Shown: in pieces, positions 8,310-40,429 of the stretch | Layout of the letters: every line of letters starts with the position of its first letter | How positions within the stretch are numbered: position 1 is the first letter of the stretch | Source of the DNA: an uncultured Planctomycetia bacterium | GTDB taxonomy: Bacteria > Omnitrophota > Gorgyraeia > JABMRG01 | Direction of reading: 5' to 3' | Length of the DNA stretch: 64,000 nt | Assembly (NCBI GenBank): GCA_964634945.1 | Contig: CAZWMG010000006.1 | Span: 736-64,735, forward strand | Notes under the pieces: generated by a model | Databases searched by the model: none | Seen by the model: only the letters and a program-made list of their open reading frames with translations | What the model was told of the DNA's origin: nothing | Position numbers and translations under genes: made by a program

Positions 8310-9224
8310 TCAGAACGAGTATGCTAATGAGGATATAACACGGAGATCATTATCTTTTGTATCTGCCGGCGGCGCCGCGTTGTAATCATCTATAAGACTT
8401 ATGCGCAGGCTTAACTTATGATTCATGGCGATATCGAGCATTGTTTCTGAGTGGATCCTGTAATCACTGAAATCCTCAAAAACAGGGTAATACAATATGT
8501 TCTGCGTGATTTTTGTGTTACTAAATAATTTTTTCTCAAAAAATGCCCTGGGAACAAGTACCCAATCCCCTTTATCCTTTATATTAGACCTGTATGAGGT
8601 ATGCTCATAACCCGCGCCTGCTTCAACCATCAGCTTTAATCTAGGCAGATCATAGAGCCAGTAACCGAGACCTGCAGCGGGTACAAACCTGTAATCTATA
8701 TCAGCAAACCTGTCGTGATCTGCCTCTATCCTATAAAAATTATACCACCTCTTCATGCTTCCAAAGCTATAAGCATATCTTCCCATACTATACCACTTAT
8801 GCGCATCCATCTTGTTGTTTGCCGAGGAATAATACATGTTACCTTTAGCTGTCCATTCGTCAATATGCTTATTCTCTCTATTAAGCAGGAAACTGCCTGA
8901 GAACTGGCTTTCACGCGTATTGCCTGTAGCGTAATTATAGCCCAATGCAACCTCTCTCTTCCATATTATATCTGTCGGATCATTGATATCTTTTCGCAAG
9001 CCATCTTCTGCTCTAACAATATGGCCTATCAAGTCTCTCTTTACCACGATTGAACCCATAGCCTCTGTCTCTACAGAAAGGCTATCCTGTTCTTCCTGCG
9101 TTATCTGCCCGCTTATCTTATCACCATTCTTAAGATATATCTCATCAGCGTAAACAGTGGCAAGAAATCCAGTAAAAAATACAATCGTTATTAAAAGACG
9201 TGTAAATATCTGATTCATATTCAA
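8310..9224 (-). CDS. outer-membrane beta-barrel protein, DUF481-like
   Basis: Signal peptide, Tyr/Gly-rich alternating pattern and C-terminal '...SLAYSF' ending in Phe. Confidence 0.5.
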   Translation of the reverse strand: MNMNQIFTRLLITIVFFTGFLATVYADEIYLKNGDKISGQITQEEQDSLSVETEAMGSIVVKRDLIGHIVRAEDGLRKDINDPTDIIWKREVALGYNYATGNTRESQFSGSFLLNRENKHIDEWTAKGNMYYSSANNKMDAHKWYSMGRYAYSFGSMKRWYNFYRIEADHDRFADIDYRFVPAAGLGYWLYDLPRLKLMVEAGAGYEHTSYRSNIKDKGDWVLVPRAFFEKKLFSNTKITQNILYYPVFEDFSDYRIHSETMLDIAMNHKLSLRISLIDDYNAAPPADTKDNDLRVISSLAYSF

Positions 9225-9346: not shown

Positions 9347-12300
9347 TTAGCTGCTTATAGCGAAACCTAAGTTTACCTTATTACGATTAGCGCGCCTTGT
9401 TACGGGACTTGTGTTGGGATATCCTAGCTTGCGCGCTACATTCATATTTTTAATAGGGATGTTTTCTACTGCTAATCTTTCAACGGCGCCTTTAAGCTCA
9501 TGAATAAATACGCTTCTCCTCGAAAGCACTCCCAATAAACTGAAATCTATCTTATGATATTTAGAGCGCCTTGTTAGCTCCTTTGATTCCTTATAGCCGA
9601 GTTTGTACGCTACATTGCATATGGTTGGCAGCTTATCTTCTTCGATTAATTCTTTAACAGCGCCTGCAACCTTATGTATAAATTTATCTCTGCTGAAAAC
9701 CACTAATCCTAATAAACTTAAATCTATACTATAATAATTCGCGAGCTTTGTTATAGGACCTGCTGTATCATAGCCTAGTTTGCGTGCTACGTTTCGCGTA
9801 ATAGGCAGTTCACCTTTGTCTGTTAATTCCTTAACAGCGCCTTCAACCTTATAAATAAAAACATCTCTACTTGTAAACAATCCTAGCAAGTTTAAGTCTA
9901 TACCATGATACTTGGCTAGTCTTGTCAAGGACCCTGTTTTCTCATAGCCTAGTTTGCGTGCTATATTTCGCGTAATAGGCAACTCTCCTTCTTCTATCAA
10001 TTCTTTAACAACACCTTTAATCTTTTGTATAGTCTTATCTCTACTGCCGCTGGAAGAAGCCTTAACAGCCCCATTAAGGGCCTTTAAAACTTCAGGATGC
10101 GCGCTTAAATACTCTTTTACTCTTGCGTCATAATCAGCCTCTTTTGCTTTTTGCATAGTAAGTTCTTCCTGCCATTTAGGTTCAATGGTTTTACCAGGAA
10201 AAGCCTTCTCAAGCCATTGAATCTGGTGCTTTGCACACCATCCATGTGAAATGTTACTTGGTATCTTTATTTCTGTTACCTCGTACGCCTTGCCGCATGT
10301 AGCGCACATTGAAACCTTAATATTTTTCCCTTTGATATACTTCTCAACTATGGGCTCAACGATGTCTCTGCTGCCTATAAAACCATGCGTTAATAAGAGT
10401 ATTTGGAATAGATGGTCATTGTTCAGGATATCCTCATCCTCTTTTATATCTAAATTAAGGGTATCGATATCACCTGCCTCATCACCATGGTAAAATGCTA
10501 ACAATGCATCCGCTATCTTAAAGTAACGTTGAAGCTTAGTATCTGCCGCAATAATAGGGCTAATAGTAGGCACTTTGCCTAAATAGATATTGCCTGTATT
10601 GCCATCTATTGTTATGGTATCGCCATTTTCGATCCTACAGGGTTTGCCAGTATTATCTGTATACACAATACCGCTGTCATCACGTGCAAAATTAGCGCCA
10701 GCACGAAGAGTTACAGCCGGTTTTATAATATCTGCTGTTCCCATTTTTTCTCTGGCTAATTCCGCGATATGGTTAATCAATGAATCTTCCTTTGTAATAA
10801 AGCCCACGGGCCAGTACATGTCAATCTGGCTGTGAAAAAATGATGAGCCCATAGCCGCAATAGGGTTATCATACTTATCAAATAAAAATCTATCGGGGTT
10901 CTCACGCACAATTAACCTTCCTGTTACAACACCCGGAGAAAGCGGAAATCCCCTTAAAACAGGCTCTATGTCACAATTAGGGCTTACTACAGGCGATTTG
11001 AGTAAGGAGATAAAATGATCTATCCGTTCCGACTCCTTTAAAACGCTTCCGCTCTCTTCGTAATCAATACTAAGAATATCTCTTGTAGCTATATCTGAAT
11101 AGCTTATCTTATCAGCAACTTCACGATACGTCAGAGTACCATTGATTCCCATATCGATCGCGTAATGGACCAGGGCCACAGGATGTACAAGAGCAGATCT
11201 TTGTTGAAGAATATACAATTTACCGCCTTCAATAGTAAATTCAATATTTCTAATATCATTGTAAACTGTCTCTAATTTCCTAGCATTCTTTTTAATAGCG
11301 GCTAATTGTGCCGGGAACATCTTTTCAAAAGTCTCTTTATAAAATATTACCTGTCCGCTTGAAGGCGTTACAACCGCAGGCCCTTGTGACTTATGAGCCA
11401 TTTCAATGTATACGCTGTTCTCGCCTGTTATCGGGTGCCTTGAAGCGGCAATACCGGTGCATGAGTTGTTATTGAGATTACCAAAAACCATCGCCTGCAC
11501 AGTAAAAGCTATATATGTGCTATCTCCTAGCATTTTTTTACTGTGCAAAAGCCGAGCTTGTTTTGAAAGATCTCCCATATCACCTTCTTGATATTTTTTG
11601 AAAGCTTCTACCGCAAGCGCTAACTGCTGCCATGGGTCCTCAGGGAATTCTATATTGTGCTTGTCTAATAGATATTTTTTTAGCTTACTAATAGTTTCCT
11701 TGTATACCAACTTCTTAGGCACCCCGTCTTTACTTATCAGTTCAAAGCCTACAAAATGGTGCGCATTATCATATTTTCTAATAAAGTTATTTTTATATAT
11801 CTCTAATATGTCATAATCCAAAGTATTGATAATGTCAACACCCAACACAGCCTCACTATAAAAGCATAAATACATTAAATACATATTGTACAATTCAACC
11901 TTATCTTCGAACCGCTTCTCCAAGGCCTTGACTGTCTCGTCATTTAAACCTATATTGAGCAATGTGGACAATTTCCCGGGCTCAACAAATGGATATCCTG
12001 CCCTGATTGAAAGAAATAGCGGTTTTTTAGCATCCCCGAAATAGCGCTCTTTTCCTGATAAAGCTTTCATCCGCTTTTCTATCTCACCTACCGCACGGCG
12101 CAATGATGCACGATCATTTGATAGAGTTCTAATCTCATCTGATGTAATTTCAGAATCGATAACAAATCCCGGAGGAACAGGCATATTCTCCAAGGCTAGT
12201 CGCATTAGGCCTGAGCCCTTATCACTCAATAGGATTTTATTCTCAGGATTGCCGTCCGCATAGCCGGGCCAAAAAAAGTGCAGGTGAGCAATGTCAGGCG

Positions 12301-12487
12301 ATAGTCGCACATCAGCTTGTAAGTGAGTATCTCTATCCGCCTCAGCCATGGCCCCTAAAATACCAGACGATGCCTGTGGTCTCAGCGCATCTATTTTTGA
12401 CTTTTTTATCTCTGCAAAGAGACAGCCTTGCCCCACACCATTGAAGGCAAATGCAACTACTATTATAAATATAATTATACTTTTCAT
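9347..12487 (-). CDS. signal-anchored PPDK/PEP-synthase-like ATP-grasp protein with a PEP-utilizer swivel domain, a Cys/His-rich module and four C-terminal tandem ~60-aa repeats
   Basis: The N-terminal hydrophobic segment is followed by 'PVPPGFVI...PLFLSIRAGYP...LLNIGLNDETV' and 'TGIAASRHPITGENSVYIE...IEFTIEGGKLYILQQRSA', matching the PPDK_N / PEP-synthase nucleotide-binding domain. 'GFPLSPGVVTGRLIV...DSLINHIAELAREKMG...IENGDTITIDGNTGNIY' resembles the phospho-His mobile domain. Next comes 'KNIKVSMCATCGKAYEV...SHGWCAKH', then four repeats of 'ELPITRNIARKLGY...T..AKYH.IDL.LLG'. Confidence 0.6.
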   Translation of the reverse strand: MKSIIIFIIVVAFAFNGVGQGCLFAEIKKSKIDALRPQASSGILGAMAEADRDTHLQADVRLSPDIAHLHFFWPGYADGNPENKILLSDKGSGLMRLALENMPVPPGFVIDSEITSDEIRTLSNDRASLRRAVGEIEKRMKALSGKERYFGDAKKPLFLSIRAGYPFVEPGKLSTLLNIGLNDETVKALEKRFEDKVELYNMYLMYLCFYSEAVLGVDIINTLDYDILEIYKNNFIRKYDNAHHFVGFELISKDGVPKKLVYKETISKLKKYLLDKHNIEFPEDPWQQLALAVEAFKKYQEGDMGDLSKQARLLHSKKMLGDSTYIAFTVQAMVFGNLNNNSCTGIAASRHPITGENSVYIEMAHKSQGPAVVTPSSGQVIFYKETFEKMFPAQLAAIKKNARKLETVYNDIRNIEFTIEGGKLYILQQRSALVHPVALVHYAIDMGINGTLTYREVADKISYSDIATRDILSIDYEESGSVLKESERIDHFISLLKSPVVSPNCDIEPVLRGFPLSPGVVTGRLIVRENPDRFLFDKYDNPIAAMGSSFFHSQIDMYWPVGFITKEDSLINHIAELAREKMGTADIIKPAVTLRAGANFARDDSGIVYTDNTGKPCRIENGDTITIDGNTGNIYLGKVPTISPIIAADTKLQRYFKIADALLAFYHGDEAGDIDTLNLDIKEDEDILNNDHLFQILLLTHGFIGSRDIVEPIVEKYIKGKNIKVSMCATCGKAYEVTEIKIPSNISHGWCAKHQIQWLEKAFPGKTIEPKWQEELTMQKAKEADYDARVKEYLSAHPEVLKALNGAVKASSSGSRDKTIQKIKGVVKELIEEGELPITRNIARKLGYEKTGSLTRLAKYHGIDLNLLGLFTSRDVFIYKVEGAVKELTDKGELPITRNVARKLGYDTAGPITKLANYYSIDLSLLGLVVFSRDKFIHKVAGAVKELIEEDKLPTICNVAYKLGYKESKELTRRSKYHKIDFSLLGVLSRRSVFIHELKGAVERLAVENIPIKNMNVARKLGYPNTSPVTRRANRNKVNLGFAISS

Positions 12488-12509: not shown

Positions 12510-15500
12510 TTAAGCGGCGCTTTGAATTGCTTTTCTTATATATGATACAGAGAGGTTTCTAGAATGCGTAATTAAACGCTCTGAGATCACAGGATGCATT
12601 TTTAGGTACTCTGCCACTCTCTCACCAACTTTAGCTTCTCTGGCTTCCTGCGCCCTAATACGTTTCAAGCGGGCAGGCCCATCTTGCTTGCTATAATCAT
12701 AGCGTTCAATGATGTTGCCTGCATCTTTAATACATTTTCCATGCGAAATACCACTTGGACCTTCGTATTTTCGCACTGCGTATATCCTGCCACATGTAGC
12801 GCACATTGATACCGTTATGTTTTTATCCTTGATATACCTTTTTACTATTTTTTCAACCAGAGCTTTATTATTTATAAGATAATACGTTAATAAGCGCATC
12901 TGAAATAGGTGGTCTTCCGTACTAATATTTACATCATTGAATATTCTCTCTAATTCTCTAGTACTGTTTTCAGGGGTCTTGTTACCCGAAGAAGAGGTTT
13001 TCTCCGTAACCGGTAAAACAGCAGTTGCAGTACCCGGGCGTATTGGAGCAAGATAACCGTTTATCCTGTTATCCTGATCCAGTCTGCGTTTCATGATAAC
13101 CTGCAATGAGCGCGCCAGAGAACTCACACCGCCAGTCTCTTTAAGTTCCGCATCGAGTAATTTTATGAATTCATCCGTGTGCATTCTTAACAAAACGCTC
13201 TTTTGCGATGCCACAACTGTCTTGCTTCTTGGAAGCTGTTTCGAATCATTGAATAATGACATAAACCTATCACGCATATCTTTATCCATATCCAAGCTCT
13301 TTATCTCTGAAATATCCATTACATTCCATATATAATAACCAGCACCTGCTATAAACTGCTGGCTTATCATGTCCTTCCTAAAAAGAGCCTTTAAATCATC
13401 TTCTGTATATAAGCTTAACGCTCTTCTAAGAATAGCCATCTCACCCAATACATGCCCCTTTCCTAATGTCTTTATACCATTCGGCATATCCGCGATACCT
13501 TCAATATTTACTTTTCCGCTTAATATTATATATACATATGGATTATCGATAGTAAGGTCTCCTTCTCTGTAGATTATATGCCCCCCTCTCATCTCCTCTA
13601 TACTACCTATAGTTGCAAACTGCTTTCTGATTAGATCCCCAAAAATAATATTTTCAGCAGTGGTCTCTATAACTGTTGACTCTTTCAGCAGGTTATCAGC
13701 CCTCACTATACTCTTACGCCTGTCAGCTCTCTTTATAACCCTCAATGATTCAAAGACCTGTGCCCTTTGGAGCCCAGGTTCATTCTGCTGGCCTGCCGAG
13801 TGGACAGTATGCACAGCACCAATATTAGCAAGCTCCTTAAACGCATCGATTAATTCCTCAGGCTCTATATGTACACCTGGCACACCATTTTCAGATATGA
13901 GAAGGTCAACACCATTTTCATAAAACTCAATAAACTTCTGCCTTAATGGGCTCTCTTTTGAAGGCATCAGAGAATCTGGTAAATAAGCGAAAATGCCTTT
14001 TTCAGTTGATATCCTAAACCCATACGTTGGCAGAGGGTGACCGAATGTTCTATTAAGAAGCATCTCCATCCCAGCAAAGAGTGACAGCGTATCATTAAAG
14101 AGAACAACTTCTCTATCCGCATCCTTTTCTGTCTTAACCAAAGGAAAGATCTTTTCAAAATCATATCTACTTATACCTGTTAAGGTGTTTAGATATTCAA
14201 ACGCTGTCTCGTAAACCGGGATAGCCGCTATCAGAGGCATTGAGCCTAATTGTCCACCATTAGCCTTTTTCAATAGTTGTTGGTAAGCAAAATCTGCCAT
14301 CCCGCCAAAGTGGTCCCAATGAACATGCGAAAGATAGAAGGCGTCAACATTATCTAAGAGTTCATTAGCCCTTATATTGCGCAAGGTCTGCGCTGAGGGG
14401 TCAACTAGAATGCCCTTGCCATTAATCGCCATTAATAAATTTGTATAATCCTGCTTACCACTAAAAGGCGTGGGATCCGCGTTACCAAAAGGCATTATTA
14501 CTAATTCATCCCTATCCTTTTCAGAGAGCTTAAACGCTTCCTCAACCATGTTGACTTGTCTTGGCGTCCATGATGAATAAAATTGATTTTCCCCGCGTGA
14601 GGCAAGGCACGCTCTGTCAATATAGTAGGCATGCGCACCCTCTCCCTCAGTGACGATAAGGCTATCTTCTGTTTTTTCTATTCTTAACGTATTAGCAGGC
14701 GTTTCCGATGAAGGCAAGCCCTTACTTAATGCAATACTGTCGCCAAGCGCCAAGACCCGAATATCGATTATTTCGTTAATTAATTTTTCTACGGCCTCGT
14801 CGTCTTTAAAAGATATATTGCCCTCTCTATTAAATAGCCCTCCGGGAAAATGAAACGACCTGTTACGGGCAAACTCCTTTGAAAGCATCTTAGCTATATC
14901 AACACTGTAACCGCTATCTATTAATTTTGCTTCATAAAATCCTGCATCATGACCAATAAAAAAAGACTTGAGCAATCTAAGAGTTTTTTTCTTCTTTATT
15001 TCTGAATCCACTACAACAGTAATTCTACCGCTTATTAACCCCTTAACAAGTACGTCTACATCATAGCCTGCATCCATAACCTCATATTTAAAAGTATCTA
15101 TCTCATCTACTTTACGCTGGTAACTCGAATAATCCTTTTCTAATGCCTTTAAATCATTGAGGAGTGCTGCATATCTTGCTGAATACCCCTTAATGATGGG
15201 ATCAAAAAACATTCTTTGAAAAAATAATCCTTCCAACACACTGCTGTTAACAAGGGGATCAAACGCCAAAAAAACAACATCGGGTTGCTCCTTAGCCTTG
15301 AGGAAGGTGTGAGAATTTTGCCTGTCATAAGCTGAAAATGATAGCGTAAATGAGCGATTGCCGTTTACATCGCCTTTTGTAGTAAGGGTAAAGTTATCCA
15401 ACAAATCAGTGCCTGAATTATCAGGATTCAACTTGTCTTGACCCGGATAAGATGCGCGCGGATTCTTAAAAACCCTTGTTTCTAAGACATCGTAAGCTTT

Positions 15501-16451
15501 TCTTAAATCCGCTCTATTATCTGTGGCCTCTTTAAACTCTTGATTCAACAGCACAAAAGCGGAATAAGCATCAGTGAAATATTTAGTCGGCGTAACTCCT
15601 AGTATCTTAATATTGCTATCTAATGAAGGGGCCTTGTCAATATATAAGTTAAGAACGCCAAAAAATATTCCTGTTTTTTTAGCGAATTTCTTTAAGTGGC
15701 CTCCTTTAAAAATTAAGTCCGCGGACCACTTAATCATCATCGCGTATGAGAGATAAGCTATGAGCTGTGGAAGTGTTGCAAATGAGGCAAACAAAGGTAA
15801 GATCGTATATGCCACAATAACAGCTGCTGCAGATAATATAATGCCCGCGCCTAAAAATGGGAGAAGTTCCCATCTACTGTTATATATTGCATTCTTTGTC
15901 TCTCTGCTTACAGAATGCGCCACTCTCTTGCCTATCGCATGTATAAAAGCGACTGGCAGATCAATTAAGCTGATCTTATTGTATATGGTAATTGTATCAG
16001 TAAACTTAAGGTATGATACCGGCAGATTCCTTGTAACTAAATTATCCGCAAATACAATCCTTATGCCCTGAATATGCTCTTTGGGTAATTTTTTTAATAA
16101 ATATATTAGAAGCGAAAGTCGGACAATAGAAAGACTGTTCGGATTATACATTATGATATTATTGTTCTCTAAGAAATCTTTGATAGTATCCGTATCTAAT
16201 AGGCTAAATTCAAGCCTTGTAGATAAGAGATCTTTAGCAATAAATTGACGCATGCCTTTTTCAAGCATCGCCTGTATTGTATAATTTTGAGGTATCGCCT
16301 TCTTAACAGGCTTGTAGCCCTGAGCATGAGTATTATCTGAAACTGAGAGCTTGTGAGAAGCTGGGCGCAGAGCAAATAAGTCAGGTGGTATACTGGCCAT
16401 AATGAGTGAAATAACCAGAAAAATTGATAAAACCCTGTAGAACTCTTTCAT
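12510..16451 (-). CDS. giant (1313-aa) membrane-anchored multidomain protein with an MBL-fold domain, a cNMP-binding-like domain and a C-terminal Cys/His-rich module
   Basis: N-terminal signal/anchor plus an internal TM pair ('LPFLGAGIILSAAAVIVAYTILPLF...'). 'AFYLSHVHWDHFGG' is the metallo-beta-lactamase HxHxDH motif. 'YVYIILSGKVNIE...GKGHVLGEMAIL' is CAP_ED (cNMP-binding)-like. The C-terminal 'KNITVSMCATCGRIYAV...SHGKCIKD' is paralogous to the module in the neighbouring gene. Confidence 0.55.
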   Translation of the reverse strand: MKEFYRVLSIFLVISLIMASIPPDLFALRPASHKLSVSDNTHAQGYKPVKKAIPQNYTIQAMLEKGMRQFIAKDLLSTRLEFSLLDTDTIKDFLENNNIIMYNPNSLSIVRLSLLIYLLKKLPKEHIQGIRIVFADNLVTRNLPVSYLKFTDTITIYNKISLIDLPVAFIHAIGKRVAHSVSRETKNAIYNSRWELLPFLGAGIILSAAAVIVAYTILPLFASFATLPQLIAYLSYAMMIKWSADLIFKGGHLKKFAKKTGIFFGVLNLYIDKAPSLDSNIKILGVTPTKYFTDAYSAFVLLNQEFKEATDNRADLRKAYDVLETRVFKNPRASYPGQDKLNPDNSGTDLLDNFTLTTKGDVNGNRSFTLSFSAYDRQNSHTFLKAKEQPDVVFLAFDPLVNSSVLEGLFFQRMFFDPIIKGYSARYAALLNDLKALEKDYSSYQRKVDEIDTFKYEVMDAGYDVDVLVKGLISGRITVVVDSEIKKKKTLRLLKSFFIGHDAGFYEAKLIDSGYSVDIAKMLSKEFARNRSFHFPGGLFNREGNISFKDDEAVEKLINEIIDIRVLALGDSIALSKGLPSSETPANTLRIEKTEDSLIVTEGEGAHAYYIDRACLASRGENQFYSSWTPRQVNMVEEAFKLSEKDRDELVIMPFGNADPTPFSGKQDYTNLLMAINGKGILVDPSAQTLRNIRANELLDNVDAFYLSHVHWDHFGGMADFAYQQLLKKANGGQLGSMPLIAAIPVYETAFEYLNTLTGISRYDFEKIFPLVKTEKDADREVVLFNDTLSLFAGMEMLLNRTFGHPLPTYGFRISTEKGIFAYLPDSLMPSKESPLRQKFIEFYENGVDLLISENGVPGVHIEPEELIDAFKELANIGAVHTVHSAGQQNEPGLQRAQVFESLRVIKRADRRKSIVRADNLLKESTVIETTAENIIFGDLIRKQFATIGSIEEMRGGHIIYREGDLTIDNPYVYIILSGKVNIEGIADMPNGIKTLGKGHVLGEMAILRRALSLYTEDDLKALFRKDMISQQFIAGAGYYIWNVMDISEIKSLDMDKDMRDRFMSLFNDSKQLPRSKTVVASQKSVLLRMHTDEFIKLLDAELKETGGVSSLARSLQVIMKRRLDQDNRINGYLAPIRPGTATAVLPVTEKTSSSGNKTPENSTRELERIFNDVNISTEDHLFQMRLLTYYLINNKALVEKIVKRYIKDKNITVSMCATCGRIYAVRKYEGPSGISHGKCIKDAGNIIERYDYSKQDGPARLKRIRAQEAREAKVGERVAEYLKMHPVISERLITHSRNLSVSYIRKAIQSAA

Positions 16452-16780
16452 GATATATCCGTTCTTCAGTAATTACAGTTTAATTATGTATTAATGATCA
16501 ATACATAATAATATTAATAAAGTTCTTTAAAAGAGTAACATAAGTTTACCAAAATGTCAATCTTAAAACCTTTTTAAAGACCATTTCTATTGTCTGCTCG
16601 TATTTAGCAGGGCTTCTATTATACTTATATTATACTATATACTATGCTTACCCCTACTTTATTATATCCTGCGCAACTAAATTATATTTAATCCCTTTGA
16701 CAAATTATTATTGAACTGGTATAATTTACATTGATTTTAATAACAATCTCAATCAATAGCATAAAAAGGGAGTCAATGTT

Positions 16781-18782: not shown

Positions 18783-19283
18783 CTATCTGTAATTATTGAA
18801 ATGAAGTGGTATAGAAAAATCCAGATCCTTTAAATGCTGCATAACGGACTGTAAATCATCCTTTTTAGGGGCAAACACTCTTACCTTCTCCCCTTCAATC
18901 TGTGACTGTACCTTTAATCCAAGGTTCTTAATAATCTTTACAAGCTCTCTTGCTTTTTCCTTCTCAATGCCTGTGGTAATCAACGCCTCTAGCTTTAAAT
19001 GCCCGCTGAAGACCTTTTCCGGTTCTGAAAAATCAAGCGCCTTTGGCGATATTCCTCTTTTTACTATCCTTGTAAGGACTATGTCTTTTAATGAGCGGAG
19101 TTTAAAATCATCAGGCGTAACCAGGGTTATCTTTTTCTCCTCACGATTATACTCTATTGTAGATTTTGAACCCTTAAAATCATATCTATTTCCGAGCTCT
19201 TTCTTTGCCTGCTGTATAGCGTTATCAACCTCCTGCATATCTACGTCTGAAACTATATCAAATGAAAATTTTTCCTTTGCCAT
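18783..19283 (-). CDS. yajQ: YajQ-family nucleotide-binding protein (UPF0234/DUF520)
   Basis: 'MAKEKFSFDIVSDVDMQEVDNAIQQAKKELGNRYDFKGS' is the characteristic YajQ N-terminus. Length is 166 aa. Confidence 0.8.
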   Translation of the reverse strand: MAKEKFSFDIVSDVDMQEVDNAIQQAKKELGNRYDFKGSKSTIEYNREEKKITLVTPDDFKLRSLKDIVLTRIVKRGISPKALDFSEPEKVFSGHLKLEALITTGIEKEKARELVKIIKNLGLKVQSQIEGEKVRVFAPKKDDLQSVMQHLKDLDFSIPLHFNNYR

Positions 19284-25511: not shown

Positions 25512-25757
25512 TTAAACGGAACGCTTAATAGCGCTTTGTACTGCAATAGATCTCGCCGGCGATACCGGCCTTGGACCTAACATAGGTGGCTCTAAAGGCG
25601 GCATTAGAACTTTTAAATTAACCTTGTGTTTTTGTGGTTTTAGCCAATCTTTATCGGGTTTTGATATTGCTGTTGAGGTAGGCCTAAGTGAAAATGCTTG
25701 TTGAGGCATGGCAAGGATAAGCGTAATGAACAATATGGCTATTGTATTTACTCTCAT
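25512..25757 (-). CDS. small secreted hypothetical protein
   Basis: Signal peptide 'MRVNTIAILFITLILAMPQQAFS' followed by a Pro-rich remainder. Confidence 0.3.
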   Translation of the reverse strand: MRVNTIAILFITLILAMPQQAFSLRPTSTAISKPDKDWLKPQKHKVNLKVLMPPLEPPMLGPRPVSPARSIAVQSAIKRSV

Positions 25758-25861: not shown

Positions 25862-27034
25862 CTATCGGTTTCTTCTTCGATATAACCCCTTCTTTTTGCG
25901 GATAACTTTTGACCCTTCTATCGGATAACCCGCTTCCTTCCATTGGCTAAACCCGCCAAGAAAGACCCTTACTAATCCTTTTTTAAAACCGCTTTTTATA
26001 AGTATGCTGGCAGCAGCTGAACTTGACTCACATTCAAAACCGTCGCAGTATAATATAAGATTTTGAGACCTTGGTATTGATTTAACGCTTCTCTCTATTT
26101 CTGAAAGAGGGACATTTACAGCGCCTTTTATATGAGACTCTCTGTACGCCTGCCTATCTCTGACATCTACCCATTGGGTCTCCTTGTTGAATAACTTATA
26201 ATAGTGCTCATACGCCTCTTCCAGGTCTATTGCTATCCCTTCTTCAGACGGTAAGAGCCTTGGCCCCATAATAATAGGGTAGCCTTTATTGGCCCAGTCA
26301 GATATGCCGCCATCCATATTGTATGCCTTGTAGCCTAATTTTCTAAGCTTAGAGGTAACATAGCTTGACCTTGTCCCACTTCCACAATAAACGACTATCA
26401 AAGTGCGCTTGCTTATATTTCTTACAAGATCCTTGAGCTCATCGGCATTGCTGAGTTTACTTCTGGCAAAACGTATTGAGTTAGGTATATATTTATGGCC
26501 ATACTCGCTCTTTTCTCTAACATCAAACATTATAACCTGATGCCCCTTTGAGATGCGTTCATTTACCTCATCAGCGTCCATATGAGGTATAGATGATACA
26601 ACACCCGCGGGCAAAGCAACGCGCTTCTTTTTCACAAAAGGTTTATTGGGGTCACGTTCTATGATTAGTGCTTTTGTAGGGATCTTTAATTGGGGATTCG
26701 CGATATCATTTGAAAGGATAGTAATATATTTCTTATCAGCGCCCTCCATCTTGCGAGAGGCATTACAGACAACATCCAAGGCCGCCTTACCACCGGGCGC
26801 AATCTGCCAGGATGATACATCTTTTACGCTATAACCGCAACAGGTATGTATCTTATCAATAACAAGATCTTCAAAACCAATATTCTTTACATAAAAGACC
26901 TTGGCCTTTGCTTCGCCTTGTCTTACCCTGCCAAAATCCCATTCTTTGGATACAACTTTTAATTCAGGGCCTGTTTGAGCAAAGGCTACTGACGCGCAAA
27001 GCAGTATTGTAAGCATTACTGCCGCATACTTCAT
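25862..27034 (-). CDS. DUF1573-like beta-sandwich domain fused to tandem rhodanese (sulfurtransferase) domains
   Basis: After the signal peptide comes 'ELKVVSKEWDFGRVRQGE...FYVKNIG...L.I' (DUF1573-like). Two rhodanese modules follow, with active-site Cys loops 'VVYCGSGTRSS' and 'ILYCDGFECESS'. Confidence 0.7.
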   Translation of the reverse strand: MKYAAVMLTILLCASVAFAQTGPELKVVSKEWDFGRVRQGEAKAKVFYVKNIGFEDLVIDKIHTCCGYSVKDVSSWQIAPGGKAALDVVCNASRKMEGADKKYITILSNDIANPQLKIPTKALIIERDPNKPFVKKKRVALPAGVVSSIPHMDADEVNERISKGHQVIMFDVREKSEYGHKYIPNSIRFARSKLSNADELKDLVRNISKRTLIVVYCGSGTRSSYVTSKLRKLGYKAYNMDGGISDWANKGYPIIMGPRLLPSEEGIAIDLEEAYEHYYKLFNKETQWVDVRDRQAYRESHIKGAVNVPLSEIERSVKSIPRSQNLILYCDGFECESSSAAASILIKSGFKKGLVRVFLGGFSQWKEAGYPIEGSKVIRKKKGLYRRRNR

Positions 27035-27049
27035 ATATTCATATAATAA

Positions 27050-29574
27050 TTATCTGACCCTAATAATAGGGACAGGTTTCGCGTTTACAGTAGCGGTGAA
27101 AGAAGATATATCACTACTGCACTCTGTACCGGAACCATCGTCTACCGTAAGAACGATTTTGTATCTCCCGGGTTTGGTATATACATGAGAGACGCTTGCG
27201 CCTTCACTGCCTGTATCGTCTCCAAAATCCCATGTATAAGTAAGTATATCTCCATCCGGATCATAGGAATTAGAGCCATCAAATCTCGATATTGTGTCTA
27301 CGCAGCAGGCAAGGCTTAGCCCTGCGTCAGCTACCGGTGGGGTATTAACCCTAATACTAACCGTATCGACGGATGTAGAACATTCATAATCACGGCCATC
27401 ATCAACTGTAAGCTTTACAGTATAGGTGCCGCCTTTCTTATAGGTATGGCGTATGCTGGAGCGGCCAAACTGCGTTGAACCATCTCCAAGATCCCAAAAG
27501 TACTGCAATGAATCACCATCAGGATCATTAGAATCAGAGCCGTCAATTGTTATCGATTTATTGATACAGACGATGCGTGGCGCATCGATATTAGCGATAG
27601 GCGCTGTATTTACATCAGCAATAACAGTCGCTATCGCCTCTGAACACCTGGTATTTCTATTATCATTTACAGTAAGTCTTGGATAATATCTTCCGCCTTT
27701 TTGGTAGGCGTGTGTTGTCTTTACCCCCTTGCCCGTTGTGCCGTCTCCAAAATCCCATATGTAGCTTAGTGACTCACCATCCTCTGTTATGGATTCTGAG
27801 CCATCAAATACGACATCATCGCCAACGCATATCTTCGAATCTCTTGTCTGTATTGATGGTGATGGTGTCTTATTCAGATCTACGCTTACAGAATCAACAG
27901 ACACACTACAAGCTGAGCCTGAACCGTCATCTACGGTTAACGTTGCTGTATAAGTACCGGGCTTTTCATATATATGCGTAACTCTCTTGCCTTCTTTGAA
28001 TGTTCCGTCACCTAGATCCCATGAATAGGTAAGCTTATCTTTATCAGCGTCATACGAACCTGAGCCGTCAAAAGTAACCTTATAAGACTCTTGGTAATCT
28101 TCCAGACAGATATCAACATCGCCTCCGGCATCAGCTATAGGCGCAGTATTTACGCGTATCTTCTGCTGAATAGTATCTGTACTGCATGTTGAATCTTCAT
28201 TATCATCAACAGTCAGGCTTATCTTATATAGGCCTCCTTTTTCATATATCTTAGTCACACGCACACCTTCAACCTTGGCCCCATCACCTAGGTCCCAGTA
28301 ATAGCTTAGATCGCTTGATGAATCATCCTGGGTTTCGCTCGCGTCAAATACTATTTTATCGCCAACACATAAACTTTCTGGATAACTAAACGCTGCCTTT
28401 GGAGGTGTGTTTACCTTGATAGTCTGAGTAGTCGTCGCTGTGTCACATTCAAGGCCTGAATTATCCGTAACTGTCAACGTAACGGTATAGGTTCCGCCAT
28501 CTTCATAGAGATGAGTAACAACGGGTTCTGTACTTGTTTCACCGTCTCCAAAAGACCAGTCGAACGATAATTTCTGATTATCTACATCATAGGAATCTGT
28601 CGCGTCAAATGTGAATTTATTACATGTAATATCCTTTACAGGCTTTAGGACCGCCTTGACAACAGCCGGCATCGGCTTACCCTTGATAACCGGTATCGGC
28701 GCGTCACCTTTTGTAAAATATATAGGAAGTATATTACCTTTATCATCATATACTTTTATACCCGCATGCGCGTACTTTTGGGTACCTTTTGTTATGACAT
28801 ACTTGAGCCTTCCACCTGTCATCGCGTTTACAGGGATCTCGGTCTTTCTCCATTCACCTGTTAGGGAGTCAGCTACATTGTACTCCTTTTTGGTCTCTCC
28901 AAAAAGTATGTCACGTCCGGCGAAGATCTCACTTGTGCCGCCTTTCGCGTCCAAATCATAATTTTCAAGCACAATATATTCAGTATCAGCTGAGACCTGG
29001 GGATAAAAATACATCTTATCTCCCTTATGGCTCAATAGCCTTATGGTTATGTCTTCACTAAAGCATTCAGCGCTCTCCGGTAAGATCCTGAATCTAAATA
29101 GATTCGCGTCATCACCCGTAAGGCCCTTTACAACTACCTTGAAACGATAAGCGTTTTCCATCTCTTCACCCTGAGACTTACTATAAGGGCCAAACATGTA
29201 AAAGGCCCTGTTATATTCACCTGATCCAAATTCTCTACTCGCGATCAGATCATCTCCATAGATAGAAAACTCTGTAACCGTATCCCAGGCATTGTTAGAG
29301 TCTGTCCTGAAATCTTTATGGCTTCCTGTATCAGGGTCATATACCTCAATAGTAAGATCCGAGGCCTCTCTCTTTGGAACATCAATAAATAATGTAAATT
29401 CATTATCTTCCGCGCCCAGAAGCGGGTCTCCTTCCGCCCCAAATACATAAAAGTATTTTGCTTTTGATCTATCTTCAGGAATATCCTTCGCTACCGAGCT
29501 ATTTACAGCAACTAAAGATAAAGAAGATATAAAAATAACAACTCCACATAAAACTTTTTTAAACATTTTCAAAA
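27050..29574 (-). CDS. secreted protein with multiple PKD repeats
   Basis: At least six repeats of the type 'F[DS].S.S.D.DG..L.Y.WDFGDG....G....H.Y...G.Y.V.LTV.D'. The preferred start MFKKVL at 29574 is preceded by 'AGGAGG'. Confidence 0.7.
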
Positions 29575-29816
29575 CCTCCTGTATAGTTACGTTTATAAAA
29601 ACCATTTGATTATTTTTAAAAGATTTGAACATCATGCAGTATATTATATCTGCGTGATTTTGTCAACCAATACTTTATAATTTTTAATATATTTACACAG
29701 AAACCATAGCTTAGCGATATTGCGGATTTATTACGCGTATAATGAGCAGATAAGGCCTGATGACTTTCTGCTAAATAGAGTATCTGCATACATTCTGTCT
29801 TTTAATAGGCGCGCTC

Positions 29817-39694: not shown

Positions 39695-40429
39695 TTAAGG
39701 ATTTGTATGTGCCGCGCGCTTCTCTATATACTCTATGACCCCCTCTTGCGTAGCGGGGGAAAGGCCTGTAAAGGCAACGCCCATTCCGGGATAGAGTTCA
39801 GGCTGAAGCATTTTATCAGCGAGCCACATTACAACGCCTTGGAATTCCTTTGGGTCCTGATCTTTTTCAAGCATGATCTCAAGGCGGACATCACTACCCG
39901 GAGGCAGGAGCTGGATGGAACGTATAAAAAGACCTGCGCCGCTTAAATTGCCCATTCTGCCTGAACAGATATGGCCTCCTTTATCAGAACGTGAATATTG
40001 AGCCAGCCTATAAACTATGGGCAAGTCTATATCAAGCCTTAAAAAACGTCGACGCCACTGCTGTTTAAGATCATCTTTCCCCAAAGAATCCACTTTGTTC
40101 GTAAAACTATCGATAGCCTTATCTATGTCAGGGTATATCTCAAAAACATCATCGAGTTTTACTACCCTGAAAATCTCTTCAACATCAAGTATTATGCCGC
40201 ATAATTTCATTATACACTTATTATTTAACGCGTTCTTATAGGTTATAGCCAGTACAGAAAGTCCGTTATAATCTACATGACTAATACCCTTCATATCTAT
40301 GATTATCTTTGAGCTGCCCTTCTCAAGCAAATCACCTACTATCTCTATAAGCTTGGATGAGTTAATATTTATCATGCCCTCTATGTTCAGGACATCGATG
40401 TCATGGAGGCGCTTTACCTTTATCTTCAT
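39695..40429 (-). CDS. STAS-PilZ fusion protein
   Basis: N-terminal STAS-like segment ('IDVLNIEGMIN...KIIIDMKGISHVDYNGLSVLAI...'). C-terminal PilZ motifs 'RRRFLRLD' (RxxxR) and 'GNLSGAGLFI' (D/NxSxGG). Confidence 0.55.
   Translation of the reverse strand: MKIKVKRLHDIDVLNIEGMININSSKLIEIVGDLLEKGSSKIIIDMKGISHVDYNGLSVLAITYKNALNNKCIMKLCGIILDVEEIFRVVKLDDVFEIYPDIDKAIDSFTNKVDSLGKDDLKQQWRRRFLRLDIDLPIVYRLAQYSRSDKGGHICSGRMGNLSGAGLFIRSIQLLPPGSDVRLEIMLEKDQDPKEFQGVVMWLADKMLQPELYPGMGVAFTGLSPATQEGVIEYIEKRAAHTNP

What the first reader, a model, noticed from the sequence alone, without database searches (positions are those of the whole stretch)
12510..16451. Giant membrane protein combining an MBL-fold hydrolase domain with a cyclic-nucleotide-binding-like domain
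The 1313-aa protein has an N-terminal anchor and an internal TM hairpin, a metallo-beta-lactamase HxHxDH motif (LSHVHWDHFGG), then a CAP-effector-type cNMP-binding signature (YVYIILSGKVNIE...GKGHVLGEMAIL). Large stretches show no recognisable similarity. An MBL fold next to a cNMP-binding domain suggests a nucleotide-regulated hydrolase, for example a cyclic or linear oligonucleotide phosphodiesterase. It is translationally adjacent to the PPDK-like gene (22-nt gap), and a DUF481 outer-membrane barrel follows on the same strand. The three genes may form an envelope-associated operon.
Basis: partly seen in the sequence, partly recalled or inferred. Interest (0 to 1): 0.75.

Follow-up and report, generated by a model that had tools for sequence, protein, structure and literature searches.

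The report
Rare nucleotide-gated membrane phosphodiesterase
A real 1,313-residue gene of an uncultured Omnitrophota bacterium encodes a membrane-tethered protein that joins an intact metal-dependent phosphodiesterase domain to a cyclic-nucleotide sensor domain; this pairing is known from slime-mould cAMP/cGMP phosphodiesterases, but here it belongs to an extremely rare bacterial family with several unusual structural features, and its substrate and its side of the membrane are still unknown.

Summary
The ORF (12510..16451, minus strand, 1313 aa) is real. The same gene occurs on independent assemblies, with colinear homologues in other metagenomes. Both domain calls hold. The MBL fold passes Pfam's cut-off and all five metal-binding motifs are invariant. 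The cNMP-binding domain scores 37.8 bits against a cut-off of 27.5.

New findings:
2. The sensor's phosphate-binding cassette is split by a 62-aa insert.
3. This ~800-aa three-domain core occurs in only about ten 50%-identity clusters among 1.84 billion representatives, including proteins of 5,734 and 7,620 aa.
4. The protein and its PPDK-like neighbour share a leader plus ALRP motif, a KxSSSG junction, a 124-aa C2HC module and an AIxS(A)A C-terminus. The tails are swapped between the two proteins in other strains.

Best reading: a cNMP-gated phosphodiesterase, functionally like Dictyostelium GbpA/GbpB. Substrate, ligand and membrane side are untested. The three-gene "operon" is only partly supported. 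I rate it a new variant of a known kind.

The parts
12510..16451 (-). Whole ORF, 1313 aa (stop codon 12510-12512)
   Evidence: The identical protein P0001 is in public assemblies.
16353..16451 (-). aa 1-33: hydrophobic leader (aa 10-28) followed by the ALRP motif (aa 27-30; nt 16362-16373)
   Evidence: Kyte-Doolittle scan. The motif is shared with the PPDK-like neighbour and with 8 protein families in related loci.
15867..16352 (-). aa 34-195: lineage-specific N-terminal region with no family match; 33-38% identical among homologues and absent from paralogue P0006
15723..15866 (-). aa 196-243: one strong TM segment (196-214) plus a weaker hydrophobic segment (216-234); the following flank carries 5 Lys
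15420..15722 (-). aa 244-344: juxtamembrane linker, poorly conserved (36-40% identity), low-confidence helices in the model
14490..15419 (-). aa 345-654: conserved domain 'X', probably a degenerate MBL-like domain without the His motif. Family invariants: P390, E407, F415, F527, R531, W628
13737..14489 (-). aa 655-905: catalytic MBL domain. Motif I D684, motif II H709-x-H711-x-D713-H714 (nt 14310-14327), H805, D826, H861, H884
   Evidence: Pfam. Residues invariant or at least 90% conserved across the family. Nearest solved sequences are Apyc1, ELAC1 and BA1088. Most conserved region, 74-76% identity.
13122..13649 (-). aa 935-1110: cyclic-nucleotide-binding domain. G1003-E1004 (nt 13428-13445 covers GEMAIL) and R1075 (LPRSKT, nt 13218-13235) are invariant across the family
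   Evidence: Pfam 37.8 bits. The family profile matches PKG, PKA-R and Epac CNB domains at E 1e-13 to 1e-8. Invariants.
13236..13421 (-). aa 1011-1072: 62-aa insert inside the phosphate-binding cassette, with invariant W1042
   Evidence: Deleting it in silico extends the Pfam match from profile positions 3-68 to 3-87 of 89 and raises the score from 43.4 to 52 bits.
12984..13004 (-). aa 1150-1156: EKTSSSG junction motif that precedes the tail modules in all relatives and in the PPDK-like protein
12573..12944 (-). aa 1170-1293: tail module with putative C2HC zinc site (C1217, C1220, H1237, C1240), 44% identical to aa 681-804 of the PPDK-like protein
   Evidence: BLASTP E 3e-26. All four residues are invariant in alignment A7. 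Only a weak ADK_lid match. Found only in this locus type in the metagenome scan.
12513..12530 (-). aa 1308-1313: C-terminal AIQSAA end motif
9347..12487 (-). Downstream partner gene, 1046 aa. It has a leader plus ALRP (nt 12377-12388), the PPDK nucleotide-binding and His-swivel domains (nt 10505-12262; putative catalytic His573 in LINHIAELAR) and no TIM barrel. It also carries the shared C2HC module (nt 10076-10447), a KASSSG junction, four ~58-aa HTH-like repeats (nt 9350-10039) and a FAISS end.
8310..9224 (-). DUF481 outer-membrane-type protein (likely start ATG at 9218). It is a positional neighbour only and lacks the shared motifs.

Best explanation
The gene encodes a membrane-tethered, cyclic-nucleotide-gated binuclear-metal phosphodiesterase of a very rare family.

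Shown:
- An ~800-aa core is conserved as one colinear unit. It consists of domain X (aa 345-654), a complete MBL catalytic domain (aa 655-905) and a CNB domain (aa 935-1110).
- All metal ligands and the cNMP phosphate-contact residues (Gly-Glu ... Arg) are kept in relatives down to about 21-35% identity.
- The CNB phosphate-binding cassette carries a family-wide 62-aa insert.
- The MBL domain is nearest to the Apyc1 / tRNase Z (ELAC1) / BA1088 group.

Inferred:
- X is a decayed MBL copy that packs on the active MBL domain as an intramolecular pseudo-dimer. It would replace the homodimer used by Apyc1, YhfI and RNase Z, as in long-form RNase Z.
- Binding of a cyclic nucleotide, or a related nucleotide given the remodelled cassette, to the CNB domain switches catalysis on or off.
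- The substrate is most likely a 3',5'-cyclic mononucleotide, giving self-limiting or cross-talk control of a second messenger near the membrane, as in Dictyostelium GbpA/GbpB.
- The N-terminal leader, the ~160-aa region and the TM segment(s) position the enzyme at the membrane.
- The C2HC tail, shared and exchanged with the adjacent PPDK-like ATP-dependent phosphotransferase, gives both enzymes a common partner, location or fate.
For: Domain calls are above Pfam cut-offs.

Family invariants:
- D684, H709, H711, D713 and H714 are invariant. H805, D826, H861 and H884 are at least 90% conserved, and invariant in the 10-sequence MBL alignment.
- G1003, E1004, W1042 and R1075 are invariant in the CNB-domain alignment.
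- Sources.

Conservation is highest in the MBL domain (74-76%) and the CNB domain (about 70%), against 33-40% in the N-terminal parts.

The MBL profile's best solved hits are Apyc1 (E 1.6e-7), an MBL-fold arylsulfatase (8gyg, E 6e-7), ELAC1 and BA1088. Apyc1 and the B. subtilis enzyme YhfI are homodimeric cNMP phosphodiesterases that use an HxHxDH motif (PMC9117128).

The CNB profile matches PKG, PKA and Epac domains at E 1e-13 to 1e-8. Removing the insert in silico restores a near full-length Pfam match.

The core is colinear in all relatives, at E 1e-69 to 1e-145.

There is a functional precedent: in GbpA/GbpB an MBL catalytic domain is activated by cNMP binding to downstream CNB domains (PMC11988041). 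A bacterial-type protein with MBL plus two canonical CNB domains (P0031) is a distant hit of the family profile.
Against: - No enzymology or ligand-binding data exist.
- The Pfam Apyc1 model (15 bits against a cut-off of 50), the RNase Z NCBIfam models and Pfam PDEase_II are not met, so the substrate class is not fixed by homology.
- The 62-aa insert in the cassette could change or abolish cNMP binding.
- Leaders look Sec-like, which would place a cNMP sensor outside the cytoplasm.
- No nucleotide cyclase was seen among the 33 window ORFs that were scanned.
Confidence: 0.5

Rival explanations
1. It is a nucleotide-regulated nuclease that acts on RNA or DNA ends, like RNase Z or RNase J, rather than on a small cyclic nucleotide. 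X would act as the substrate-holding inactive half, as in ELAC2.
Against: RNase Z NCBIfam scores are 14-15 bits against cut-offs of 252-293. No beta-CASP or KH domains were detected. Only 90 residues lie between motif II (aa 709-714) and H805, which I judge too few for an RNase Z-type flexible arm (inference). The best solved hit is a cNMP phosphodiesterase. A membrane tether is unusual for tRNA or mRNA processing.
Confidence: 0.17
2. It has the same chemistry, but the protein is exported and acts outside the producer, either on its surface or inside a prey or host cell. There it would destroy, or be switched on by, the victim's cyclic nucleotides. On this reading the PPDK-like enzyme and the other leader/ALRP...SAA proteins are co-delivered effectors.
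For: Leaders have a positive n-region and a short h-region, and in L011 members an AQS(A/T)G-type site typical of Sec signal peptides. Relatives P0006, P0025, P0026 and P0028 have a single N-terminal hydrophobic segment and no later one, and P0025 and P0027 begin with signal-peptide-like leaders. The core is embedded in proteins of 5,734 and 7,620 aa. A leaderless relative sits next to an RHS-repeat fragment and a gene of more than 2,000 aa. Many Omnitrophota are proposed to be predators or parasites, and their long proteins are mostly predicted to carry a signal peptide and/or TM helices (PMC10066038; bioRxiv 10.64898/2026.06.07.730766).
Against: The cargo set includes a protein that passes the LpxC equivalog cut-off, a histidine kinase and an ATP-grasp enzyme, all of which normally need the cytoplasm. 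The window protein has no clear signal-peptidase site. Five Lys follow the TM region, and by the positive-inside rule this points to a cytoplasmic C-terminal part. Leaderless members P0029 and P0030 exist. No secretion genes are adjacent in the window.
Confidence: 0.2
3. The CNB-like domain no longer senses cyclic nucleotides. The 62-aa insert would make it a scaffold or a sensor for another ligand, and the MBL domain would hydrolyse a non-nucleotide substrate such as a lipid head group (like NAPE-PLD), a sulfate ester or a lactone.
Against: Gly-Glu and Arg of the cassette are invariant across the family, and the Thr three residues after the Arg is at least 90% conserved. That pattern is hard to explain without phosphate-ribose binding. 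With the insert removed, the domain matches the Pfam model nearly end to end.
Confidence: 0.1
4. It is an assembly chimera or a fused pseudogene.
For: None found. The only hint is the unusual mix of domains.
Against: The identical sequence is on independent contigs seen in 8 samples. Colinear homologues come from four other assemblies. The reading frame is uninterrupted and the composition is even. The same domain order is found in distant relatives.
Confidence: 0.01

Closest known systems
Dictyostelium GbpA (PdeD) and GbpB (PdeE), class IIb cNMP phosphodiesterases
   Same: An MBL-fold catalytic domain is followed, C-terminally, by cyclic-nucleotide-binding domain(s) in one polypeptide. In GbpA/GbpB, cNMP binding activates hydrolysis of cGMP or cAMP (PMC11988041). 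This is the best functional analogy.
   Different: GbpA/GbpB have two canonical CNB domains and are cytosolic. The window protein has one CNB domain with a 62-aa insert in the cassette, an extra degenerate MBL-like domain upstream, a membrane tether and a C2HC tail. Sequence relatedness to GbpA/GbpB was not tested because no sequence was available here.
Apyc1 (phage anti-Pycsar) and YhfI / BA1088-type bacterial MBL phosphodiesterases
   Same: These include the nearest solved sequences to the catalytic domain (Apyc1 E 1.6e-7, BA1088 E 3.8e-6). They use an HxHxDH binuclear-metal site. Apyc1 and B. subtilis YhfI hydrolyse 3',5'-cNMPs (PMC9117128).
   Different: They are ~250-aa soluble homodimers without sensor domains. 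Pfam's Apyc1 model scores 15.4 bits against a cut-off of 50, and similarity is confined to the region around motifs I-II.
Long-form RNase Z (ELAC2 / Trz1)
Bdellovibrio Bd1971 (cNMP-binding domain fused to an EAL c-di-GMP phosphodiesterase)
   Same: A bacterial second-messenger phosphodiesterase with a fused CNB domain. Its CNB domain is among the PDB hits of the family profile.
   Different: The catalytic fold is EAL rather than MBL. The domain order is the reverse. It is soluble.
Bacterial-type proteins with MBL plus two canonical CNB domains (P0031, 740 aa)
   Same: A distant hit of the family profile (E 3.8e-7) with Lactamase_B / Lactamase_B_2 plus cNMP_binding domains.
   Different: It has a contiguous cassette (IGETALILNQPRNADIVA), two CNB domains, no X domain by sequence, no leader and no tail.

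Membership tests
Metallo-beta-lactamase fold superfamily (Pfam Lactamase_B_2 / Lactamase_B) | Score at or above the curated cut-off | tested here: met
   Lactamase_B_2 scores 28.7 bits against a cut-off of 27. Lactamase_B scores 22.5 against 22.7, just below.
Metallo-beta-lactamase fold superfamily | Five metal-binding motifs: Asp, HxHxDH, His, Asp (or Cys), His | tested here: met
   D684, H709/H711/D713/H714, H805, D826, H884 (plus H861). All are invariant or at least 90% conserved in relatives of 24-66% identity.
Cyclic nucleotide-binding domain (Pfam PF00027) | Score at or above the curated cut-off | tested here: met
   37.8 bits against 27.5 for the whole protein. 43.4 bits for the isolated region.
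Cyclic nucleotide-binding domain (PF00027) | Phosphate-binding cassette residues Gly-Glu and Arg(-x-x-Thr) | tested here: met
   G1003, E1004 and R1075 are invariant, and T1078 is at least 90% conserved, across 10 family sequences.
Cyclic nucleotide-binding domain (PF00027) | Contiguous cassette (about 10-11 residues between Glu and Arg) | tested here: not met
   70 residues separate E1004 and R1075 because of a 62-aa insert. The Pfam match stops at profile position 68 of 89 unless the insert is deleted.
Cyclic nucleotide-binding domain (PF00027) | Binds cAMP, cGMP or another cNMP | not testable with these tools
   Needs ITC, DRaCALA or a co-crystal structure.
Class IIb (MBL-type) cNMP phosphodiesterases, GbpA/GbpB type | MBL catalytic domain followed by CNB domain(s) in one chain | tested here: met
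   MBL at aa 655-905, then CNB at aa 935-1110.
Class IIb (MBL-type) cNMP phosphodiesterases, GbpA/GbpB type | Two tandem CNB domains | tested here: not met
   Only one cNMP_binding match. The tail has no second CNB domain.
Class IIb (MBL-type) cNMP phosphodiesterases, GbpA/GbpB type | cNMP-stimulated cNMP hydrolysis; sequence orthology to GbpA/GbpB | not tested
Apyc1 (Pfam PF23023) | Score at or above the curated cut-off (50 bits) | tested here: not met
   15.4 bits, covering aa 663-727 only. Not a member; related clade only.
RNase Z (TIGR02651 / NF000801) | Score at or above the curated cut-off | tested here: not met
   14-15 bits against cut-offs of 252-293.
Long-form RNase Z-like tandem MBL architecture | N-terminal MBL-fold domain without the His motif, directly upstream of the active MBL domain | tested here: inconclusive
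Class II cAMP phosphodiesterase (Pfam PDEase_II; yeast PDE1 / CpdP type) | Match to the family model | tested here: not met
Anti-phage defence or anti-defence systems (PADLOC) | Match to a system-specific model beyond the shared CNB domain | tested here: not met
   The only hits are weak matches (about 11-20 bits) of aa ~905-1010 to Pycsar-type models (TIR effector models, PycTIR, PycC), confined to the CNB-domain region.

The most novel reading that the evidence does not exclude
The leader-[A/T/S]LRP motif and the C-terminal I-x-S-A-A / A-I-S-S end, together with the KxSSSG junctions and swappable tails, may mark a previously undescribed two-ended sorting or processing system in an Omnitrophota lineage. 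It would handle a set of enzymes with 'cytoplasmic' chemistry: this cNMP-gated phosphodiesterase, a PPDK-like phosphotransferase, an LpxC, a histidine kinase and an NHL propeller. One version is export and delivery to the cell surface or into prey, where the phosphodiesterase would sense or destroy the victim's cyclic nucleotides through a CNB domain whose remodelled cassette recognises a non-canonical nucleotide.
Probability: 0.25. Interest if true: 0.85.

Novelty: new variant of a known kind. Interest (0 to 1): 0.55.

Why it matters
MBL-type phosphodiesterases fused to cyclic-nucleotide sensors are characterised mainly in Dictyostelium. Two full-text literature searches found no paper describing a bacterial MBL-plus-CNB phosphodiesterase. 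This family would give a bacterial example with three features worth testing:
- a possible built-in pseudo-dimer of MBL domains;
- a phosphate-binding cassette that tolerates a 62-residue insert while keeping its contact residues;
- use of the same 800-aa unit as a building block in proteins of up to 7,620 aa.

Omnitrophota are uncultured, possibly predatory nanobacteria whose long membrane-associated multi-enzyme proteins are unexplained. At 1.3 kaa this member is tractable. Its shared end motifs and exchangeable tails offer a concrete way to ask where such proteins go and how they are processed.

Tried and rejected
- **GTDB representative genomes.** A scan with the family alignment found only generic MBL matches of 27-42% identity over about 50-110 residues. 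No family member turned up, so the organism or lineage is not represented there.
- **Word-indexed protein searches.** The full protein gave 6 hits and the 13-sequence core profile gave 8. The tail-module alignment returned nothing, not even the source proteins, so I treat that search as uninformative.
- **Domain X.** Foldseek against PDB gave no hit at E <= 0.001. The afdb50 library was unavailable. hhalign of X against the family's MBL domain gave probability 0.1%. The X profile against PDB sequences gave nothing.
- **PADLOC.** Hits were confined to the CNB-domain region, so a defence-system reading was dropped.
- **Decayed zincin lead.** The N-terminal region shows a pattern resembling a decayed HExxH...E signature (REIGH / REIGR / HAIGK plus YF[A/T]DAYS). 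Pfam gives no support, even with the TM hairpin deleted, so I make no claim.
- **HTH-like repeat region** of the partner protein has no PDB sequence match.
- **Recent duplication of the tail module** within the window is rejected. The two DNA copies have diverged, sharing mainly a conserved stretch around the Cys-x-x-Cys codons.
- **Literature.** Searches for a bacterial MBL-plus-CNB phosphodiesterase and for an Omnitrophota sorting signal found nothing.
- **tmRNA.** None is present in the window for comparing the C-terminal motif with the ssrA tag.

Full report
**Observation.** The window has an uninterrupted minus-strand ORF at 12510..16451 (1313 aa, ATG start). GC content is even across it. 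Hydropathy shows a leader at aa 10-28, a strong TM segment at aa 196-214 and a weaker one at aa 216-234. Pfam gives cNMP_binding (aa 953-1015, 37.8 bits, cut-off 27.5) and Lactamase_B_2 (aa 681-875, 28.7 bits, cut-off 27). A weak Apyc1 match (15 bits) is well below its cut-off. NCBIfam returns only sub-threshold MBL and RNase Z matches. The next gene (9347..12487) follows after 22 nt and is PPDK-like. A DUF481 gene follows after about 122 nt.

**Is it an artefact?** No. The identical protein is on an 87.6-kb NCBI contig and on a Logan contig seen in 8 samples. Four full-length homologues (54-57% identity) and one shorter paralogue (52%) come from JGI and ENA assemblies and are colinear. Flanking genes (aldehyde dehydrogenase, STAS, YajQ, YchF, an EF-G-like protein, SpoIIE) are syntenic. 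The window's EF-G falls in a 90%-identity cluster with Candidatus Orphnella occulta, phylum Omnitrophota.

**Rarity and the true unit of conservation.** A search of 5.8 billion clustered proteins found only 6 proteins. A scan of GTDB species representatives found no member. I then built a profile of the stretch with no known domain (aa 340-655) and ran it with full HMMER against 1.84 billion 50%-identity representatives. It found ten proteins. Three belong to the close group. The others are a 459-aa protein that ends inside the MBL domain and looks truncated, and proteins of 1137, 1377, 1390, 2285, 5734 and 7620 aa. A local hmmsearch with the whole core showed that all six complete distant proteins contain the same colinear ~800-aa unit, at E 1e-69 to 1e-145. 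The unit is the unknown domain X, then MBL, then the cNMP-binding domain. Pfam sees MBL and/or cNMP domains at matching positions in them. So the conserved entity is a three-domain core. It is used alone (P0029 and P0030, which have no leader), with leaders, or embedded in very long proteins.

**Catalytic domain.**
- Across 13 sequences of 24-66% identity, D684, H709, H711, D713 and H714 are invariant.
- H805, D826, H861 and H884 are at least 90% conserved, and invariant in the 10-sequence MBL alignment.
- The family MBL profile hits Apyc1 best among solved proteins (7u2s, E 1.6e-7). An MBL-fold arylsulfatase (8gyg), human ELAC1 and BA1088 follow.
- Apyc1 and the B. subtilis enzyme YhfI are homodimeric cNMP phosphodiesterases built on the HxHxDH site (PMC9117128).
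- The MBL domain is the most conserved part of the protein, at 74-76% identity.
- I conclude that it is an active binuclear-metal phosphodiesterase. Its substrate is not fixed by homology.

**Sensor domain.**
- The family's profile matches PKG, PKA-R and Epac CNB domains at E 1e-13 to 1e-8.
- The cassette reads GEMAILRR, then 62 residues, then LPRSKTVVA.
- G1003, E1004 and R1075 are invariant and T1078 is at least 90% conserved in all ten aligned family members. A Trp inside the insert (W1042) is also invariant.
- Deleting the insert in silico extends the Pfam match from profile positions 3-68 to 3-87 of 89 and raises the score from 43.4 to 52 bits.
- This is a genuine CNB domain with a family-specific insertion in the phosphate-binding cassette. 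The kept contact residues argue for continued phosphate-ribose binding. The insert may alter specificity, but that is an inference.

**Domain X.**
- With six sequences, AF2 of the whole core was poor (pLDDT 48).
- With 14 sequences, X alone gave pLDDT 77 and pTM 0.71.
- Foldseek, hhalign against the family's own MBL domain and a profile search of PDB sequences gave nothing.
- X has no conserved His or Asp cluster. Its invariants are P390, E407, F415, F527, R531 and W628.
- I read X as a decayed MBL-like domain, at about 60% confidence. Because the nearest active relatives work as homodimers, a tandem dead-plus-live pair would act as an intramolecular pseudo-dimer. This is the arrangement known from long-form RNase Z (general knowledge).

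**Ends and tail: the link to the neighbour.**
- The MBL protein and the PPDK-like protein share a 124-aa module at 44% identity (E 3e-26). It has an invariant C-x2-C ... H-G-x-C pattern.
- Both have a hydrophobic leader followed by ALRP. Both have a K-x-S-S-S-G junction before the tail modules. They end in AIQSAA and FAISS respectively.
- The tails are mosaic between strains. P0004's tail matches the window's PPDK-like tail over 300 aa (46% identity, E 1e-88), and in that locus the PPDK-like gene is absent.
- P0002, P0003 and P0005 carry a methyltransferase insert. P0005 also carries the 58-aa HTH-like repeats of the PPDK-like tail.
- A metagenome scan with the module found it only in this locus type (4 loci).
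- The PPDK-like protein keeps the PPDK nucleotide-binding domain (E about 1e-36 to solved PPDKs). It also keeps the His-swivel region, with a His aligned to the catalytic His. It lacks the PEP/pyruvate TIM barrel. It is therefore an ATP-dependent phosphotransferase of unknown acceptor.
- The gene pair is adjacent in the window and in L012, L017 and L018. It is not adjacent in L013 or L002. DUF481 is a positional neighbour only.

**A wider signature.**
- In 158 ORFs of at least 100 aa from the window and four related loci, 13 have a leader plus [A/T/S]LRP and 13 have an SAA, SSA, AAA or [I/L]SS end. Twelve have both (Fisher p = 5e-16; some are orthologues of one another).
- The two exceptions are the halves of one frameshifted gene that encodes a Metallophos domain and a histidine kinase.
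- The set spans eight protein families. It includes an NHL propeller, a protein that passes the LpxC equivalog cut-off, and three unknowns clustered around paralogue P0006.
- The long relatives P0024, P0027 and P0028 end in ..ADIAA..SIRQAA and ..SIQRAA.
- No NCBIfam model covers these ends, and a literature search found nothing.

**Topology is unresolved.**
- The leaders look Sec-like, which predicts export.
- The domains (a cNMP sensor, ATP-using enzymes, LpxC, a SAM methyltransferase) and the five Lys after aa 243 point to the cytoplasm.
- If aa 196-243 is a single TM segment, the protein has the classic receptor layout: TM1, then a ~165-aa outside loop, then TM2, then a cytoplasmic output.
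- Published surveys report the same puzzle for long Omnitrophota proteins (bioRxiv 10.64898/2026.06.07.730766; 10.1101/2023.11.21.568195).

**Mechanism and comparison.** The best-supported model is a membrane-tethered, cNMP-gated phosphodiesterase. It works like Dictyostelium GbpA/GbpB, where an MBL catalytic domain is activated through downstream CNB domains (PMC11988041). It is not a demonstrated member of that family. It has one CNB domain rather than two, a split cassette, an extra X domain, a membrane tether and a tail. It fails the Apyc1, RNase Z and PDEase_II family thresholds. The rivals are a regulated nuclease, an exported effector, and a non-nucleotide ligand or substrate. None can be excluded without biochemistry and topology mapping.

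**Verdict.** This is a new variant of a known kind, from a very rare family, with interest 0.55. The two-ended signature and the swappable tails are the most novel leads, and they lie partly outside the original finding.

Noticed in passing
window 9347-12487 and 12510-16451; L002 8083-9975; L011 6165-7415, 7472-8860, 9980-12604, 12765-17872, 17910-18938; L012 18295-19446: A two-ended signature. An N-terminal hydrophobic leader is followed within about 3-20 residues by [A/T/S]-L-R-P, and the C-terminus ends in ..I-x-S-A-A, A-I-S-S or similar. It occurs on eight unrelated protein families: MBL-cNBD, PPDK-like, an NHL propeller, an LpxC, a Metallophos-histidine kinase and three unknowns. 12 of the 13 ORFs with one motif have both (p = 5e-16). 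No NCBIfam model or paper was found.
   Followed up: partly
L013 4338-8705 (P0004); L002 10001-15664 (P0005); L012 9481-14580 (P0002): Tails are mosaic between the MBL-cNBD protein and the PPDK-like protein. P0004 carries the PPDK-type tail (C2HC module plus HTH-like repeats plus FAISS), and the PPDK-like gene is absent from that locus. P0002, P0003 and P0005 carry a SAM-methyltransferase insert. Each module starts after a K-x-S-S-S-G junction.
   Followed up: partly
window 9350-10039 (-): Four ~58-aa repeats (ELPITRNIARKLGY...TRLAKYHGIDLxLLG) at the end of the PPDK-like protein. TRF reports period 174 nt, 2.3 copies, 75% identity. There are only weak Pfam hints of HTH or DNA-binding families and no PDB sequence match.
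   Followed up: partly
window 10505-12262 (-): The PPDK-like enzyme keeps the ATP-grasp nucleotide-binding domain and a His-swivel region (LINHIAELAR aligned to the catalytic ..TSHAAVVAR) but lacks the PEP/pyruvate TIM barrel. It is an ATP-dependent phosphotransferase of unknown acceptor behind a signal-like leader.
   Followed up: partly
window 25512-25757 (-): An 81-aa ORF with the same leader plus SLRP motif (..QQAFSLRPTSTAIS..) and a Pro-rich body. It may be a small member of the same class. No family search was run on it.
   Followed up: no
L011 12765-15704 and 15701-17872: Two overlapping ORFs are the halves of one gene of about 1,700 aa. The gene has a leader plus ALRP, a Metallophos domain, HisKA and HATPase_c domains, and an ..AISSAA end. 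It is split by an apparent frameshift, either an assembly error or a pseudogene.
   Followed up: partly
L011 6165-7415: A protein that passes the LpxC equivalog cut-off (TIGR00325, 192 bits against 187) carries the Sec-like leader, ALRP and an ..AFAAAA end. This is odd for a cytoplasmic lipid A enzyme and bears on which side of the membrane this protein class sits.
   Followed up: no
window 15867-16352 and 15420-15722 (aa 34-195 and 244-344): The N-terminal region shows FIHAIGKRV here, FLREIGRRV in P0002 and FLREIGHRV in P0005. After the TM hairpin comes TP(T/S)KYF(T/A)DAYSA. Together these resemble a decayed HExxH...E zincin signature. Pfam gives no support, even with the hairpin removed.
   Followed up: partly
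P0025, P0026, P0027, P0028 (distant relatives), N-terminal ~100-560 aa: Between the leader and the X-MBL-cNBD core these proteins share a conserved region beginning ..(V/I)KDAHCxYEAQKNI.. (DAHxNYxAQ) that has no Pfam match.
   Followed up: no
window 46574-48058, 54485-56011, 39695-40429, 18783-19283: Other nucleotide second-messenger components are in the window: two GAF plus HD_5 (HD-GYP-type) proteins, a STAS-PilZ protein and a YajQ/DUF520 protein. No nucleotide cyclase was seen among the ORFs scanned.
   Followed up: no
L016 172-851 and 5531-10776: The leaderless, high-GC (60%) relative P0030 lies downstream of an RHS-repeat fragment and upstream of an ORF of more than 2,000 aa with Big_13 Ig-like domains. 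The family therefore extends beyond the low-GC Omnitrophota lineage.
   Followed up: no
window 16452-16780: A divergent intergenic region. A perfect TTGACA-17-TATAAT with an extended TG (16697-16725, + strand) faces the aldehyde dehydrogenase gene. On the minus strand a TTGACA lies about 100 nt upstream of the MBL gene start. Neither the MBL gene nor the PPDK-like gene has a clear Shine-Dalgarno sequence.
   Followed up: no
window 27050-29635 and 25862-27034 (-): An 861-aa protein with six PKD domains lies next to a DUF1573 plus double-rhodanese protein. These are surface or adhesion-type genes unrelated to the finding.
   Followed up: no
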